64,000 bases of DNA from Styela clava. Lineage: Eukaryota. This document shows, one piece after another, positions 3,001-9,000 of the stretch. The first letter of the stretch is position 1. Every line of letters begins with the position of its first letter. The position numbers were made by a program. The DNA lies in NCBI RefSeq assembly GCF_964204865.1, contig NC_135258.1:14384001-14448000 (forward strand). Direction: 5' to 3'.

Positions 3001-6000
3001 CAGAGGTTAGAGCATAATTTTTTTTTATATATTCAGAGCGTGTTTCAGTGCTGTGGTGCCAAATCTCCAAAAGACTGGATTCAAGTCGATAAGGAAAACG
3101 GAATCGTCTACGATTGGATCCCCCAGTCATGCTGTATTAACTCTTCGGACTGCTCGATATCTCCAAGAAACGTAATTCTTGATGTTTCTTCTACTGCTAT
3201 CTCAATGACTACGGCCAATCCTGGCATGGGCACCTCAATTCCGTTTTCCCTTGGAAACGATGCTACATTTGATTTTGTTCAAACCCAGATTTACGATAGG
3301 GGATGTGACACTGCTATTCAATCTTTCCTAACCTTACACAGTTTGTTGCTATTTGCATCAGCATTCATACTGATTTTATTGCACACATCCTGGGTTATTT
3401 GGCGCCGAAATGCTGGACTTCCGTACCTATGTTGTGAATTCAATCGTAGAAAAAATCGAGTTCTACCTATTCATCTCGAAGTTAACGGTAGTCCGACGAG
3501 TTCAAATGAAAGCCTATTTTTCTTGCAAAATAAGCTCATAAACAACATCAGCAGCAGTGAAAGCTTTCAACTCATTAATGTCCCAGAGAGTTCGGAGAGT
3601 AACCACATAGTTATGAAAAAGCCTGGACCACCGTCAATAACGCGAGTAGGACAGGATATAGCAATTTCTCCCTTAGAAAATCTTCGTTCATCTTTCACTA
3701 ATAAGGATGAAACGAAATACAGGCCACGCACGTCGAGAGCAAGGCCAAAAACAGGCATTAGTCGATCTGCAGGAAACTTGCCACGTAATGTTTCAAGGAT
3801 GCTTGAGGAAACTATGTCAGGACATCGACCGCCAACGCCTGCTAAATTGCCTCAACAAGTGATGGTAGTTCATGGTGATAATGAAGATGCTGACACTTTC
3901 GAACCTGCTCATTTCTCTGGGCCTGCTTCAAGCAAAGACACATGGGCAACGGCTGTCAATGTTGAAGTTCCCAACACCAAGCGACAAAATGACGACGACA
4001 AGCTTTCGATTTATAGCATTGACAGCCTCGAAGGATGGTAAACCATGCCTCATATCTTATATAGCGGGCGCTACCACGCGATGCGGTGCTGAATTTACTT
4101 GTTTTTATTTAATGATATTACTCGCATAATAAATAAAAAAATTCATTGGAAAAGCATATAATTTTACTTACAAAATGGGCAGGTTATAAGAAAAATAAAT
4201 TTCCTTGATCGCTAAAAACCTGCATCATCAATTTCCATCCAGCACTCGTTTATCTAATAAGTGCTTAATTACTAAAGTTATCACTTCTTACTCCAACAGC
4301 GGTTGACCCGTTGTTTCTTTCGTGTAGATCAGAGGTGACGAACCTGCGGCCCACGAAGCATTCTGGCAATTCAGTGTATGTTTGGAGTAAAGTCACAAAC
4401 CTCCATGAACTGTACAGAGAGAATGGGAGCGCAAGTGTTACCGTATTCATATTACTGGCAACAACACTATTTCCAACACATCTATTTTTTTGGATCATCG
4501 ATACCTCTAACAATGGATCAAAATGACCATTGTCGTAGCATAGTTACGCTCTCTTATCGGCAAACGCATACGGTTTAATAGAGAAGGAGTAATCTCACTT
4601 TATGAAAATGCTCAATGAATAAAACAATGGTAGAAAGTACATGGTACAGTACATTAAAAATTGATTTTGCAATAATACGCAGGTAGTAAACTCAAACTTT
4701 CGTGTTAAAAATGCTGTGGTATTCGAAAGGGAATTTGGATCTGGAACATCCGAGCCGAGCGTTTATATTGCATTATATAATTGAATAACATCAGCTGTAT
4801 TGATGCCGTTGTTCGTTTAGTAGATGAAAATCAACAGGTATCATACGGTAGTACGACTATAAATTGTGCGGCCCGCTCACTCAGCGGTGACTGATAAAGT
4901 GGCCCGCTACAGCAAATTGGTTCGTCACCCCTGGTGTAGATTCTCTTCTCCATCTGCCTTGCATATTTTCCTTCACTTTCATCTCACTTTTGGTTCTATT
5001 TCCATTTCATGTATGTAGGCTACTTTAAATACTAATACCACGTGTCACATATTCAGAATCCTATATTTATACAAACATGGCATATAATCATAATAATCTT
5101 GGCACATTTTTATCAAGTTCTAAAATCCAGATTGTTGAATTATAAAATATATACCTGTTTCGACGGGAACTTAGCAGTGACATATTCTATTTAAGAATGG
5201 CGCAGTTTGTTCTTTTCTCTTTTTTACTTTGATTAATCATCGTAAGGATGTCGCATAGCTTGTAATAGATTAGTATAGTATTTTCTGAAAGTGCGAGACT
5301 TTTTTAGAAGAAGTATACTATCCAGATGAGGCTGGGCCATTTCAAAAATAGCATTTTCGTAGGACATGGCGCGTGGCAAACCCCATACTTCAACGTTCGA
5401 GACGAATGTGAAGAATTGATTAAAATATTGAGCATTGAACGTTAGATCCTATTATGAAGAATATAAGGTATTCGTATTTCACAAATTGAATAATCGTCCA
5501 TACACTAATCGGATAAATTAGATTTTCAACATTGCTTGTAAACAACGTTTTCGTAGTTTGGAGGAGAGGGATGAGATTTTTAATTATATTTGCTATACTG
5601 GTCTTATGACAAATGATGATTTTGAAAAAGCTAATCAGTTTATATTTAAAAAATTATGTAAAAACTCCCAATATAAGCAAAAATATCGCACTAGTAAGTT
5701 ACGCCTAAATGTCAAATTGACGAAATAAAACAAACCAGTCGCCGGAGCGCGAACGTGATGTGAGTATGTGAAAGGGTAGTTTGAGTTTCTTCGCGCGCTT
5801 TTACAGTCTTAGGAATTAGGATTCTAGATTCGTCAGGTAATTCTGTGAATCAATAATCTTTTACGGTAGAACTGTAGTATGGAAAATCAGCCACCTGTTT
5901 CTTCGCAAATGATGCCCATGGAAGTAGCACCAGAAGAAATCCGCAAACATGGTACCGGTACGCCTCTCGCACAAATCAATCCAAATTGCCCTAGCAAATG

Positions 6001-9000
6001 TACAGAAACGACATCAGAAGAACAACACGGCGAGTATGAATACCTCAACTTATGCAGAAGGATATTGTCTAAGGGTAAAATAAAGGGAGATAGAACCGGC
6101 ACAGGAACAATATCTTTGTTTGGTGCTCAAATGCGTTATGACTTGAGAGAAAGTTTCCCGTTGTTGACCACCAAACGTGTCTTTTGGAAAGGTGTTCTAG
6201 AAGAATTACTTTGGTTTATAAGAGGCAGCACCAATGGAAATGAATTATCTTCTAAAGGAGTTCGAATATGGGATGCCAACGGCTCTCGTGAGTTTCTCGA
6301 TAAATTGGGATTTCATGATCGTGAAGTTGGAGATCTGGGACCTGTTTATGGGTTTCAATGGAGACATTTTGGCGCTGAATATGTTGACATGAACACTGAT
6401 TATACTGGGAAAGGTGTTGATCAGCTTTCTCAAGTAATAGAAACAATTAAAAAGGATCCAGACAACAGGAGAATTATGATGTGTGCCTGGAATGTTACAG
6501 ACATACCAAAAATGGCCTTGCCTCCATGTCATGCAATGTGCCAGTTTTATGTGTGTGATGGAGAACTATCATGCCAACTTTATCAGAGATCAGCAGATAT
6601 GGGGCTTGGTGTGCCTTTCAATATCGCTAGCTATTCCCTTCTTACATACATGATCGCTCATATTACAGGCTTAAAACCTGGCGATTTCGTACACACAATA
6701 GGAGATGCTCATGTATACAGCAATCATGTTGAACCTCTCAATGAACAGTTAAAACGTGTACCTCGACCATTTCCACTTCTTAAAATAAAAAGACAAATAT
6801 CAAATATTGATGATTTCAAATATGAAGATTTTGAGCTGGTAAACTATAAACCTCATGGCAAAATTGCAATGAAAATGGCTGTTTGACCAAGGCACACTTG
6901 CTAAAGAGTCTTAGACATACACGAGCTATTTGGTGTCAGCACGAACAAGATTATGAACATTTATTTACTATAAATATTTCAGAAACTGCTTACCTATTAA
7001 ATAATGCAGATATCTGAATAGATTATTTGATAAGTATAGAATGGCCATCCACGATTTTCAGTTGTACACCAGGGTTTTATATTTGTACCATACAATTTTG
7101 TACAATACAAAAATGTGTAATCTAAATATGGTTAGATAATCTAAAAATTGACTTTTTAGTCTTGGTACAAAAAATAATACAATCATGTAACTAAATCATG
7201 GAAATGTTAAGAAGTGAAGCTGTAAACCAATCATACCAATTTAGGATGCAAAATAAGCACTTCTTCTGTTAGAGCTTTGTAGCCCAAACTTGAAAGTGTT
7301 TATTGTACATTCCAGATATACACATTCCTTGCCGCAAGTGGTTATTTATGTCATGTATAGTTTTTGTTGTTATTGTGTCTATTTATCAGTTTACAATTTG
7401 TATATTGTTCTTTTTTCAGTATAAAAACACCAAATTTGAATATTCTCTAAACTGGTTATGTCTGAAGAAAAGGAAATCGAAGTTAAAAAAGAAACAACAA
7501 ATCAAGAGGAATTTGCTTATGACGCATCAAGTCTACCAAGCTTGCTTCCAATTTATTATAAACTCTTGTTTCCTTATGGGCCGTTCTATTCTTGGTTGAG
7601 TTACGGAGGTCTCAATAAAACTACATTTTCAAACCGGGAATTTTCGTTCACTTTACAGAATGATATTTATGTTCGATACCAATCTTTTACAAGTCAGCAA
7701 GAAATGGAGAAAGAAATCCAGAAAATGAAACCTCACAAAATTGACATTGGAGCCATATTTTCCCATCCACCAAAAGATCATAATAAATATCATAGCGGCA
7801 TTTTTAAACCTCTAGAAAAAGAACTTGTGTTTGACATTGATATGACTGATTACGATGACGTTAGAAAATGTTGTCAAGGAGCTGATATTTGTACAAAATG
7901 TTGGCCTCTTATGACAATGGCTATTAAATTGATTGATAGAGCCCTGAGAGAGGATTTTGGATTCATGCATCGACTGTGGATATATTCTGGTAGACGTGGA
8001 GTCCATTGCTGGGTATGTGACGACAAAGTACGAAAATTGCCGAATAAAGCAAGATCTGCGATCGTGGACTACTTGAGTGTGATTCAAGGTGGTAATTTGG
8101 AGAAAAGAGTTAATCTTAAAGATCCAGTCCACCCGTTTTTAAGACATTGTATAACCACAATATCGAAGCAGCATTGGGAGGAATACCGACAGGCACAAGA
8201 AATTCTTGAAACCCCTTCAGACGTTGAAAAAGTACTAAAAATGGTTCCTGATGCTGAAATGAAGGAAAAATTGAAAACGGAATTTAATAACGATAATCGT
8301 ACAACTGAAACTAGATGGGAAAGAATAAGAAAAGCCACTGCTGAAAGATATCAAGAAGACATGAAAAAATATCGTAAGCTTCGTTACACGCCACAAGAAA
8401 TTATGCTAGAATTTTGTTATCCTCGTCTCGATGCCAACGTCAGCACAAGTATTAATCACTTGTTAAAGAGTCCTTTTTCTGTTCATCCTAAAACCGGACG
8501 TGTTTGTGTACCAATTGATATAGATAGCGTTGATGATTTCGACCCTTTTGCTGTCCCGACTATCAGCCAACTTTGCCACGAGTTAGACTCACAAAAAGCA
8601 GAAAAAACAGAAGACAATTCTGACGGTTCCACTAGAAAGATCCACCTTTATAAAACAACAAGTATCAAAAAACACGTCAAGATTTTTGAAGATTTCGTTA
8701 ACAAATTATTAGCAGATAGCCGTAAGGAAAAACTTAATCAGAAAGATGCAACAATGGATTTTTGATTGTTTTTATATTGAAACTGATTATTCTCAATCAT
8801 AATTTTTGTTAGCTAGCAAATTGTTAGCGGACAGTCGTAAGGAAATACCTAATCAGAAAGATTTATATGAACTTTAGATTGTTGTTCGCGTTGACACTGT
8901 TTATTCTCAATCATAACTTTTGGTATCTGGATTTGACATGTTGGTAAATTGTAAACAATGTGCTGCTGCAGGTTTTGTTAATATTGGTTTCATTTAGGAA

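What the first reader, a model, noticed from the sequence alone, without database searches (positions are those of the whole stretch)
5821..7460. Possible shared leader exon: TYMS nested in the first intron of PRIM1 (one promoter, two unrelated enzymes)
Seen: a good donor CAG|GTAATT at 5836/5837 lies 42 nt upstream of the TYMS ATG. The nearest AGs (5869 and 5877) would give a very short intron of at most 41 nt, while the tetraspanin's short introns are 74 nt. A strong acceptor with no obvious local donor sits at 7419 before PRIM1. Inference: retention or proximal splicing gives TYMS mRNA, while 5836-to-7420 splicing skips the entire intronless TYMS ORF and gives PRIM1 mRNA. That would be a splice/polyadenylation switch between two replication enzymes, and it is an alternative to the operon model.
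Basis: inference. Interest (0 to 1): 0.65.

Follow-up and report, generated by a model that had tools for sequence, protein, structure and literature searches.

The report
Likely sea-squirt operon: TYMS, PRIM1, MRPS10-like
Two intronless DNA-replication genes and a third gene lie head to tail behind one promoter-like spot in a sea-squirt genome, most likely a spliced-leader operon of a known kind, while the proposed shared leader exon is possible but cannot be tested without RNA data.

Summary
CAG|GTAATT sits at 5836/5837, 42 nt before the TYMS ATG. The AGs end at 5869 and 5877. A very strong acceptor ends at 7419, 38 nt before the PRIM1 ATG.

The window is tunicate and matches Styela clava. 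Tunicates use spliced-leader (SL) trans-splicing and operons.

I scored sites with a matrix built from 23 donors and 21 acceptors of this window:
- The 5837 donor is strong (top 0.83% of GTs).
- The 7420 acceptor beats all 21 real acceptors.
- The two proximal AGs score below all 21 real acceptors. They would give 33- or 41-nt introns, against a 74-nt minimum here. Proximal splicing is rejected.

Several features favour one transcription unit. An E2F-like CpG cluster lies only upstream of TYMS. Neither spacer has AATAAA. Strong donor-like sites are depleted on the sense strand from 5838 to 9539. Unpaired strong acceptors precede PRIM1 and the next gene, which is MRPS10-like.

This is the published Ciona operon pattern, so SL trans-splicing at 7420 and 9387 is my best explanation (0.55). 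Cis-splicing 5836^7420 remains a live rival (about 0.2 as the main route). Ciona data show that a strong upstream donor competes with the SL. No RNA evidence was reachable, so the junction is untested.

The parts
5716..5820 (+). Promoter-like CpG cluster holding an inverted pair of TTCGCGC motifs (5747-5753 on the minus strand, 5790-5796 on the plus strand), followed by a G+T-rich stretch at 5750-5800
   Evidence: TTCGCGC occurs only twice in the 64-kb window on both strands, and both copies are here (1.43 expected in the whole window). There are 8 CpG per 80 nt, which is the top 0.34% of 80-nt windows. G+T content is 0.65-0.70 in the 20-nt windows starting at 5750-5780. Calling the motif E2F-like (7 of 8 matches to TTTCGCGC) rests on my recall of the consensus. 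The strict pattern TTTSSCGC has no hit here.
5834..5842 (+). Candidate 5' splice donor CAG|GTAATT, with the break at 5836/5837; use unproven
   Evidence: Read. It scores 8.22 bits, top 0.83% of 6771 GTs, and is above 19 of 23 real donors. It is one of only 2 AGGTAAKT matches in the window.
5879..6886 (+). Intronless thymidylate synthase (TYMS) ORF including the stop codon, 335 aa
   Evidence: PF00303, E 3.4e-120. The 'ME' start is shared by 2 of the 3 closest relatives.
6887..7419 (+). Spacer 1 (533 nt): presumed TYMS 3' UTR and/or the outron or intron upstream of PRIM1. It ends in the acceptor gtatattgttcttttttcag|
   Evidence: It has no AATAAA; ATTAAA is at 6996. It holds at most 2 CpG per 80 nt. 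The acceptor at 7420 scores 10.97 bits, above all 21 real acceptors. A weak local donor-like GT lies at 7338 (5.09 bits).
7420..7457 (+). Predicted PRIM1 5' UTR downstream of the acceptor (38 nt, no upstream ATG)
   Evidence: The only ATGs in 7250-7458 are at 7348, 7353 and 7458.
7458..8765 (+). Intronless DNA primase small subunit (PRIM1) ORF including the stop codon, 435 aa
   Evidence: PF01896, E 5.1e-51; 59% identity to Clavelina and 57% to Ciona PRIM1. The N-terminus MSEEKEIE is shared with an 82%-identical relative.
8766..9386 (+). Spacer 2 (621 nt), ending in the acceptor tttttcacttttttccttag|
   Evidence: It has no AATAAA or ATTAAA. The acceptor at 9387 scores 8.66 bits, top 1.1% of AGs.
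9387..11330 (+). Third gene, a mitochondrial ribosomal protein S10-like gene. Its four coding exons are 9396-9539, 10330 (or 10351)-10499, 10855-11059 and 11238-11330
   Evidence: I worked out the exon boundaries by reading. GT and AG were asserted for donors 9540, 10500 and 11060 and acceptors 10855 and 11238. Exon 3 searched alone matches PF00338 Ribosomal_S10, E 1.8e-6. The acceptor of exon 2 is ambiguous.

Best explanation
The locus is a tunicate (Styela clava-type) polycistronic transcription unit. One E2F-like promoter at about 5716-5820 drives intronless TYMS, then intronless PRIM1, then probably the MRPS10-like gene.

The strong acceptors at 7419|7420 and 9386|9387, which have no local donor, are spliced-leader trans-splice sites. 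They cut the downstream messages out of the long precursor and give them a cap. As in Ciona, TYMS mRNA would end somewhere in the 533-nt spacer, possibly right at the acceptor.

The 5837 donor is either upstream of most transcription starts or is a competing cis donor. In the second case it yields at most a minority of leader-to-PRIM1 transcripts.

Shown here: gene identities, intronless ORFs, splice-site strengths, motif distributions, and the tunicate origin. Inferred: co-transcription, SL addition, the position of the start site, and the 3' ends.
For: 1. Origin. PRIM1's best named relatives are Clavelina (59%) and Ciona (57%). A Styela clava ARHGEF7-like protein maps at 100% identity onto the minus strand with 17 GT-AG introns.

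2. SL trans-splicing and operons are documented in tunicates. The 5'-most cistron may or may not be trans-spliced, and all downstream cistrons are (PMC1488885, passages read).

3. The window shows that pattern. PRIM1 and gene 3 each have a top-0.33% or top-1.1% acceptor within 38 or 9 nt of the ATG. TYMS has only weak ones within 300 nt upstream: 4.4 and 4.6 bits at 5807 and 5837, and -0.36 and -1.12 bits at the two proximal AGs.

4. The 5'-most gene is single-exon, as in 790 of 1310 Ciona operons (PMC2760879, section 10).

5. There is no AATAAA in either spacer (0 in 1155 nt, against 2.2 per kb on this strand). The tetraspanin gene has AATAAA 87 nt after its stop. In Ciona, 16 of 18 operons lack AATAAA before the internal boundary (PMC1488885, section 17).

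6. Both TTCGCGC motifs in the window and a top-0.34% CpG cluster lie just upstream of TYMS. The spacers have at most 2 and 4 CpG per 80 nt.

7. Donor-like GTs of at least 6 bits on the sense strand of 5838-9539 number 1 against 9.7 expected (Poisson P 0.0007). The antisense strand has 7. Two control long exons have 4 against 4.5 expected and 6 against 4.9 expected. This fits selection against donors upstream of unpaired acceptors.

8. Ciona gives a precedent for the geometry. Rpl21 is the second gene of an operon, with its promoter about 1700 bp upstream and a trans-splice cluster at its 5' end (PMC4691747).
Against: - No RNA data were available: no SL read, no 3' end, no start site.
- The SL of Styela is not known to me. 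I found none in print for Styela or Botryllus. The window holds no convincing SL RNA gene.
- Ciona operons have no intercistronic DNA and are defined by gaps under 100 nt. Here the stop-to-acceptor distances are 533 and 621 nt. This fits only if the 3' UTRs are that long.
- A strong donor (8.22 bits) lies 42 nt before the TYMS ATG. By the Ciona rule, such a donor should compete well against the SL if it is transcribed (PMC11155486).
- The donor depletion depends on the threshold: 14 against 17.8 expected at 5 bits or more, and 0 against 3.8 at 7.2 bits or more.
- The absence of AATAAA is weak on its own. The chance of zero is about 0.08 by my own estimate from the density.
- In Botryllus, another styelid, a candidate two-gene operon with a 227-bp spacer showed no SL on the downstream message (PMC3691228).
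Confidence: 0.55

Rival explanations
1. Transcription starts upstream of 5837. A short non-coding leader exon ending at 5836 is cis-spliced to 7420 (and perhaps to 9387), which removes the whole TYMS gene as an intron. Unspliced transcripts polyadenylated in spacer 1 give TYMS mRNA. This would be a splice-versus-polyadenylation choice of the cholinergic-locus type.
For: - The donor scores 8.22 bits, top 0.83% of GTs and above 19 of 23 real donors. 7420 is the best acceptor between 5838 and 7470.
- No other sense-strand GT of at least 7.2 bits lies between 5838 and the first real donor of gene 3 at 9540.
- The G+T-rich stretch at 5750-5800 resembles the region just after start sites of trans-spliced and operon genes in Ciona (PMC4691747). 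That would place the start upstream of 5837.
- No ATG lies between 5769 and 5878, or between 7356 and 7457, so the spliced 5' UTR would be free of upstream ATGs.
- In Ciona, many SL acceptors are also cis acceptors of a first exon, and strong first donors lower trans-splicing.
- Inter-gene cis-spliced transcripts were seen at a styelid two-gene locus (PMC3691228).
Against: - There are no junction reads.
- The start site is unknown and could lie downstream of 5837, because TATA-less S-phase promoters often give very short 5' UTRs (recalled).
- Single-exon 5'-most operon genes are the majority in Ciona, and there downstream genes were shown to carry the SL (1158 of 1599 downstream genes had 5' full-length ESTs).
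- A second good acceptor inside the TYMS ORF at 6669 (9.26 bits) would compete and give useless products.
- Two further donor-like GTs at 5694 and 5760 show that such motifs cluster here. That could reflect something other than splicing.
Confidence: 0.2
2. The genes are independent. PRIM1 has its own promoter inside spacer 1. Its message is made either by SL trans-splicing of a short outron at 7420, or from a small local non-coding exon ending at 7337 with an 82-nt intron to 7420, or it starts just after the TATAAAA at 7420-7426. The adjacency to TYMS has no transcriptional meaning.
For: - Outrons in Ciona average 438 nt and peak near 100 nt (PMC4691747), so 533 nt is enough room.
- The local donor-like GT at 7338, CAA|GTGGTT, scores 5.09 bits. 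That is within the range of real donors, and the 82-nt intron fits the 74-85 nt short introns seen here.
- TATAAAA lies at 7420-7426.
- Spacers of 533 and 621 nt are longer than the under-100-nt Ciona operon criterion.
Against: - Spacer 1 has no TTCGCGC and at most 2 CpG per 80 nt.
- It has no AATAAA to end TYMS before such a promoter.
- TATAAA-type hexamers are common in this AT-rich DNA; TATAAA occurs at 6969 and 9260 in the two spacers.
- A start after the TATA box would leave a 5' UTR of under 10 nt.
- The sense-strand donor depletion spans the whole unit.
Confidence: 0.15
3. The 5837 motif is not a splice site at all. It is either a chance match or a U1-binding or other element of the promoter-proximal region, with no effect on which mRNAs are made.
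For: - AGGTAA occurs 30 times in the window against 34.9 expected, so the core is common.
- Three donor-like GTs (5694, 5760, 5837) sit within 143 nt. That is more suggestive of a G+T-rich promoter-proximal composition than of one chosen splice site.
- Clusters of 3 sites in 150 nt somewhere on a strand arise in 45% of random placements.
Against: The full AGGTAAKT match is one of only 2 in 128 kb of both strands. It lies immediately before a 3.7-kb stretch that is otherwise depleted of strong donors.
Confidence: 0.1

Closest known systems
Ciona-type SL-resolved operons (Satou 2006, PMC1488885; Satou 2008, PMC2760879)
   Same: Same-strand neighbouring genes. The 5'-most gene is single-exon. The downstream genes begin at strong acceptors with no local donor, close to the ATG. 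There is no AATAAA before the internal boundaries. Promoter-like features lie only at the 5' end. The host is a tunicate.
   Different: SL addition and the 3' ends are not shown here. The stop-to-acceptor distances are 533 and 621 nt, whereas Ciona operons are defined by gaps under 100 nt and usually have no gap between the mapped mRNA ends. A strong donor sits in the presumed 5' UTR of the first gene.
Cholinergic gene locus: VAChT/unc-17 nested in the first intron of ChAT/cha-1 (PMC3053374; PMC3875643)
   Same: A complete single-exon ORF lies between a 5' untranslated exon's donor and the first acceptor of a second, functionally related gene. The predicted choice is between polyadenylation inside the intron and splicing across it.
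   Different: No shared-exon transcripts are shown here. The host also has SL trans-splicing, which offers a simpler route to the same acceptor. The enzymes here are S-phase enzymes, not a neurotransmitter pair.
Botryllus schlosseri fuhc-sec / fuhc-tm pair (PMC3691228)
   Same: Also from a styelid ascidian. The two same-strand genes are separated by a featureless spacer with no promoter elements. Read-through and inter-gene cis-spliced transcripts were detected.
   Different: That spacer is 227 bp, both genes are multi-exon, no SL was found, and the authors favoured rare read-through. The genes are unrelated to TYMS or PRIM1.
Ciona genes whose first cis acceptor is also the SL acceptor (class 'TS-1stAS' in Yokomori 2024, PMC11155486)
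   Same: One acceptor is served both by an upstream first-exon donor and by the SL, and donor strength sets the balance. This could describe 5837 and 7420.
   Different: That class was defined on non-operonic genes. No whole protein-coding gene is reported inside the first intron or outron in the passages I read.

Membership tests
Tunicate SL-resolved operon | Two or more genes on the same strand in direct succession | tested here: met
   TYMS is at 5879-6886, PRIM1 at 7458-8765, and the MRPS10-like gene starts at 9396. All are on the plus strand.
Tunicate SL-resolved operon | The downstream cistron starts at a functional 3' splice acceptor with no partner donor | tested here: inconclusive
   The acceptors at 7420 (10.97 bits) and 9387 (8.66 bits) are strong, and the spacers hold no strong local donor. 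A strong candidate partner does exist at 5837, and a weak one at 7338.
Tunicate SL-resolved operon | The spliced leader is present on downstream mRNAs | not testable with these tools
   No transcript data were available. The Ciona SL has no meaningful match in the window. I found no Styela or Botryllus SL sequence in print.
Tunicate SL-resolved operon | No, or under 100 nt of, intercistronic DNA between the upstream poly(A) site and the downstream acceptor (Ciona definition) | not testable with these tools
   The 3' ends are unknown. The stop-to-acceptor distances are 533 and 621 nt.
Tunicate SL-resolved operon | The canonical AATAAA is usually absent before the internal boundary (16 of 18 in Ciona) | tested here: met
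   There are 0 AATAAA in 6887-7419 and in 8766-9387. The neighbouring tetraspanin gene has AATAAA at 4128 (PMC1488885, section 17).
Tunicate SL-resolved operon | A single promoter at the 5' end of the unit | tested here: inconclusive
   The TTCGCGC pair and the CpG cluster lie only at 5716-5820, and the spacers are CpG-poor. This is sequence inference only; no start-site data were available.
Shared-leader nested locus (cholinergic-locus type) | The whole upstream ORF lies between a 5' exon donor and the first acceptor of the second gene | tested here: met
   The order is donor 5837, TYMS 5879-6886, acceptor 7419|7420. This is geometry only.
Shared-leader nested locus (cholinergic-locus type) | mRNAs of both genes carry the same 5' exon (junction 5836^7420) | not testable with these tools
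Shared-leader nested locus (cholinergic-locus type) | The transcription start lies upstream of the shared donor | not testable with these tools
   There are only indirect hints: the motif pair at 5747-5796, the G+T-rich stretch at 5750-5800, and no ATG in 5769-5878.
Thymidylate synthase (PF00303) and DNA primase small subunit (PF01896) | A full-length match to the family profile above the curated cut-off | tested here: met
   TYMS scores 400.6 bits (cut-off 24.3) over profile positions 2-266 of 266. PRIM1 scores 173.7 bits (cut-off 26.8) over positions 1-163 of 163.

The most novel reading that the evidence does not exclude
In a chordate that has SL trans-splicing, a short leader exon ending at 5836 is cis-spliced across a complete, functional TYMS gene onto PRIM1, and perhaps onto the MRPS10-like gene. 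One E2F-type promoter would then feed two replication enzymes through a choice between splicing and polyadenylation, with cis-splicing and SL trans-splicing competing for the same acceptor. This would be a hybrid between an operon and a cholinergic-type nested locus. It would also explain why strong donors are purged from the 3.7 kb downstream of 5837 while this one is kept.
Probability: 0.2. Interest if true: 0.6.

Novelty: new member of a known kind. Interest (0 to 1): 0.35.

Why it matters
If the operon reading is right, this is an ordinary tunicate operon. It has a tidy functional logic: dTMP synthesis and DNA priming behind one S-phase-type promoter. It would also be a useful styelid example in which the stop-to-acceptor distances are about 0.5 kb, against the near-zero gaps between mapped mRNA ends in Ciona.

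If the leader-exon reading is right, the locus would be a natural test bed for how a donor near the cap competes with the spliced leader for one acceptor. The Ciona literature explicitly leaves this open, as the single-promoter versus two-promoter hypotheses (PMC11155486). It would also show that single-exon first genes of operons can lie inside a true intron.

Either way, one RT-PCR or a look at existing RNA-seq would settle it.

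Tried and rejected
1. Proximal mini-intron (5837 to 5869 or 5877). Rejected. The acceptors score -0.36 and -1.12 bits, below all 21 real acceptors. The introns would be 33 or 41 nt, against a minimum of 74 nt among the 23 introns used.

2. The 16-nt stretch 5821-5836 as an SL-like mini-exon. It is 10 of 16 identical to the Ciona SL and is followed by GT. Rejected as chance: 54 of 6771 GT sites reach 10 of 16 or more. Matches with 3 or fewer mismatches number 5 against 3.08 expected, and none is near the locus.

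3. Strict E2F pattern TTTSSCGC. It has 7 hits in the window, none in 5000-5879 or in the spacers. Only the shorter TTCGCGC pair marks the TYMS upstream region.

4. Shared-contig evidence for dicistronic transcripts. I compared the contig lengths of the closest PRIM1 relatives (2356 and 1637 nt) with those of the closest TYMS relatives (1497, 1194 and 9662 nt). There is no coincidence, so this is uninformative.

5. An upstream coding exon for TYMS. The only ATGs in 5740-5878 are at 5758 and 5766, and each is followed at once by TGA in the sequence I read.

6. Known RNA families and tRNAs in the window: none found.

7. Literature searches:
- TYMS, primase, operon and spliced leader together: 0 papers.
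- Styela and spliced leader: 0 papers.
- Styela clava and trans-splicing: 3 papers hold both terms and 2 were listed; neither title nor abstract start concerns trans-splicing, and I opened neither.
- Spliced leader and Botryllus: 3 papers; I read passages of one (PMC3691228), which give no SL sequence.
- Matsumoto 2010 (PMC2860165) is not held.
- The Didemnum ncRNA paper has nothing on SL RNA.

8. A cluster of donor-like GTs as a statistical signal. Three in 143 nt upstream of TYMS is nominally rare for a pre-chosen 186-nt stretch. However, such a cluster somewhere on a strand arises in 45% of random placements, so I give it little weight.

Exons were searched one at a time.

Full report
**What is in the sequence**

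- CAG|GTAATT has its break at 5836/5837, 42 nt before the TYMS ATG (5879-5881).
- The nearest downstream AGs end at 5869 and 5877.
- cttttttcag ends at 7419, 38 nt before the PRIM1 ATG (7458).
- ttttttccttag ends at 9386, 9 nt before the ATG of a third gene (9396).

TYMS (5879-6886, 335 aa) and PRIM1 (7458-8765, 435 aa) are uninterrupted ORFs. Both give full-length Pfam matches: PF00303 at E 3.4e-120 and PF01896 at E 5.1e-51.

For the third gene I searched the exons one at a time and searched no joined model. Its third exon matches Ribosomal_S10 (PF00338, E 1.8e-6), so I call the gene MRPS10-like.

**Which organism**

PRIM1's best named relatives are tunicate: Clavelina lepadiformis at 59% and Ciona intestinalis at 57%. 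An exon on the minus strand is 100% identical to a protein named 'rho guanine nucleotide exchange factor 7-like isoform X1, Styela clava'. That 670-aa protein maps exactly onto the minus strand from 38343 to 11379, with 17 GT-AG introns.

The window is therefore Styela clava or something extremely close to it. Styela clava is a stolidobranch ascidian. The window is not human and holds no N.

This matters because tunicates use spliced-leader (SL) trans-splicing and have operons (PMC1488885 and PMC2760879; passages and sections read).

**How good are the splice sites by this genome's own standard**

I built position weight matrices from 23 donors and 21 acceptors. These came from the 17 ARHGEF7-like introns, 3 tetraspanin donors with 2 of their acceptors, and 3 gene-3 donors with 2 of their acceptors. 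I left out two acceptors because their position was ambiguous.

Real donors here are degenerate. The scores are as follows.

| Site | Score (bits) | Rank among all GT or AG in the window | Against real sites scored leave-one-out |
|---|---|---|---|
| Donor 5837 | 8.22 | 56th of 6771 GTs | above 19 of 23 donors |
| Acceptor 7420 | 10.97 | 21st of 6456 AGs | above all 21 acceptors |
| Acceptor 9387 | 8.66 | top 1.1% of AGs | above 16 of 21 acceptors |
| Acceptor 5870 | -0.36 | top 31.6% of AGs | below all 21 acceptors |
| Acceptor 5878 | -1.12 | top 36.7% of AGs | below all 21 acceptors |

The introns that 5870 and 5878 would close are 33 and 41 nt. The shortest of the 23 introns is 74 nt (tetraspanin 1988-2061 and 2299-2372), and the next shortest is 85 nt.

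AGGTAAKT occurs only twice in both strands of the window, against 6.0 expected. One copy is the real first donor of the tetraspanin gene and the other is 5835-5842.

Two cautions apply. Two more donor-like GTs lie just upstream, at 5760 (7.52 bits) and 5694 (7.2 bits). A good acceptor-like site also lies inside the TYMS ORF at 6669 (9.26 bits).

**Evidence that TYMS, PRIM1 and perhaps gene 3 form one transcription unit**

- *Promoter-like features.* The heptamer TTCGCGC occurs twice in the whole window, at 5747-5753 (minus strand) and 5790-5796 (plus strand). The pair is inverted and lies 80-130 nt before the TYMS ATG. From memory, each copy matches the E2F consensus TTTCGCGC at 7 of 8 positions. 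The surrounding 80 nt hold 8 CpG, which is the top 0.34% of 80-nt windows. Spacer 1 never exceeds 2 CpG per 80 nt and spacer 2 never exceeds 4.
- *No AATAAA.* Neither spacer contains AATAAA (0 in 1155 nt, against 2.2 per kb on this strand). The tetraspanin gene upstream has AATAAA 87 nt after its stop, and gene 3 has one about 170 nt after its stop.
- *Donor depletion.* Donor-like GTs of at least 6 bits are nearly absent from the sense strand of 5838-9539: 1 against 9.7 expected (Poisson P 0.0007). The antisense strand of the same stretch has 7. Two other long exons in the window have 4 (4.5 expected) and 6 (4.9 expected). The effect holds for strong sites only: at 5 bits or more it is 14 against 17.8, and at 7.2 bits or more it is 0 against 3.8. 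I read this as selection against donors that could pair with the downstream unpaired acceptors. That implies those acceptors see the upstream RNA.
- *Acceptor pattern.* PRIM1 and gene 3 have top-ranked acceptors next to their ATGs. TYMS has only weak ones, and the tetraspanin gene has none of at least 4 bits within 300 nt.

**Comparison with what is published for Ciona**

- In Ciona operons the 5'-most cistron may or may not be trans-spliced, and all downstream cistrons are.
- Single-exon genes are the majority of 5'-most operon genes (790 of 1310).
- 16 of 18 characterised operons lack AATAAA before the internal boundary.
- The poly(A) of the upstream message is added at the G of the acceptor AG.
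- Rpl21 is a worked example of a second operon gene whose promoter lies about 1700 bp upstream.

The window reproduces each feature that can be read from DNA. The one open difference is distance. The stop-to-acceptor distances are 533 and 621 nt, which is compatible with the Ciona pattern only if those stretches are 3' UTRs.

The same literature states that SL trans-splicing normally uses acceptors without a partner donor, and that paired acceptors are cis-spliced. Newer Ciona data show that many SL acceptors are also the first cis acceptor of a gene. The weaker the first donor, the more trans-splicing occurs, which suggests one promoter feeding both products.

The 5837 donor is strong. If it is transcribed and the precursor reaches 7420, some 5836^7420 product is to be expected.

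Whether it is transcribed is unknown. Three things hint at a start upstream of 5837: the motif pair at 5747-5796, a G+T-rich stretch at 5750-5800 (compare), and the absence of ATG from 5769 to 5878. None of these is proof.

In Botryllus, another styelid, a two-gene locus with a featureless 227-bp spacer gave read-through and inter-gene cis-spliced transcripts and no SL.

**Verdict**

The interpretation cannot be decided from DNA.

| Reading | Probability |
|---|---|
| SL-resolved operon of the Ciona kind, with 5837 unused or a minor competitor | about 0.55 |
| Leader exon as the main route | about 0.2 |
| Independent PRIM1 promoter in spacer 1 (possible local donor at 7338, 5.09 bits, 82-nt intron) | about 0.15 |
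| 5837 has no role in RNA processing | about 0.1 |

There the single-exon VAChT ORF lies in the first intron of ChAT, and in C. elegans the two genes share a 5' untranslated exon.

**What stayed unchecked**

- Any RNA evidence.
- The SL sequence of Styela.
- The operon tables in paper supplements, which were closed and could list a TYMS-PRIM1 operon in Ciona.

Noticed in passing
window 8694-8928 (+): The last ~120 nt of PRIM1 (the end of the ORF plus the start of the 3' region) are tandemly duplicated. 8694-8747 matches 8809-8862 at 83%, and 8777-8814 matches 8891-8928 at 87%, with a spacing of 114-115 nt. The second copy lies after the stop codon and has diverged.
   Followed up: partly
window 10247-10347 (+): A 60-nt tandem duplication contains the acceptor region of exon 2 of the MRPS10-like gene (ttgtag|gtcttgagaaa occurs twice, 85% identity). 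This leaves two or three in-frame acceptor choices: 10330, 10351, and the upstream copy.
   Followed up: partly
window 5838-9539 (+): Strong donor-like GTs are depleted on the sense strand. At 6 bits or more there is 1 against 9.7 expected, while the antisense strand has 7 and the control long exons are not depleted. This may be a DNA-level signature of transcription units that contain unpaired acceptors. It could be tested genome-wide as an operon predictor.
   Followed up: partly
window 11997-12012 (-), inside the last intron of the ARHGEF7-like gene: The 16-mer TTACTATTTCAATAAG is 13 of 16 identical to the Ciona SL and is followed directly by GT and a small hairpin-capable stretch. A match at this level is expected by chance (5 hits against 3.08 expected). 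I saw no clear Sm site.
   Followed up: partly
window 11328-11378: The genes are convergent, with stop codons only 45 nt apart. The MRPS10-like stop is at 11328-11330 (+) and the ARHGEF7-like stop at 11376-11378 (-). The first AATAAA after the plus-strand stop (11499) lies beyond the last coding exon of the minus-strand gene, in its last intron, so the 3' ends must overlap.
   Followed up: no
window 5758-5771 (+): Two minimal start-stop units (ATGTGA) lie at 5758 and 5766, between the two TTCGCGC motifs. They are the only ATGs in the 120 nt before the TYMS start codon.
   Followed up: no
window 6649-6671 (+): An acceptor-like site lies inside the TYMS ORF: catgatcgctcatattacag|gct, with the first nucleotide after the AG at 6669. 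It scores 9.26 bits (top 0.82% of AGs). It would be a competing target if the 5837 donor is active.
   Followed up: no
window 3-773 (+): An open reading frame of 256 aa runs off the 5' end of the window. It is serine- and acid-rich and has no Pfam match. It lies upstream of the tetraspanin gene on the same strand.
   Followed up: no
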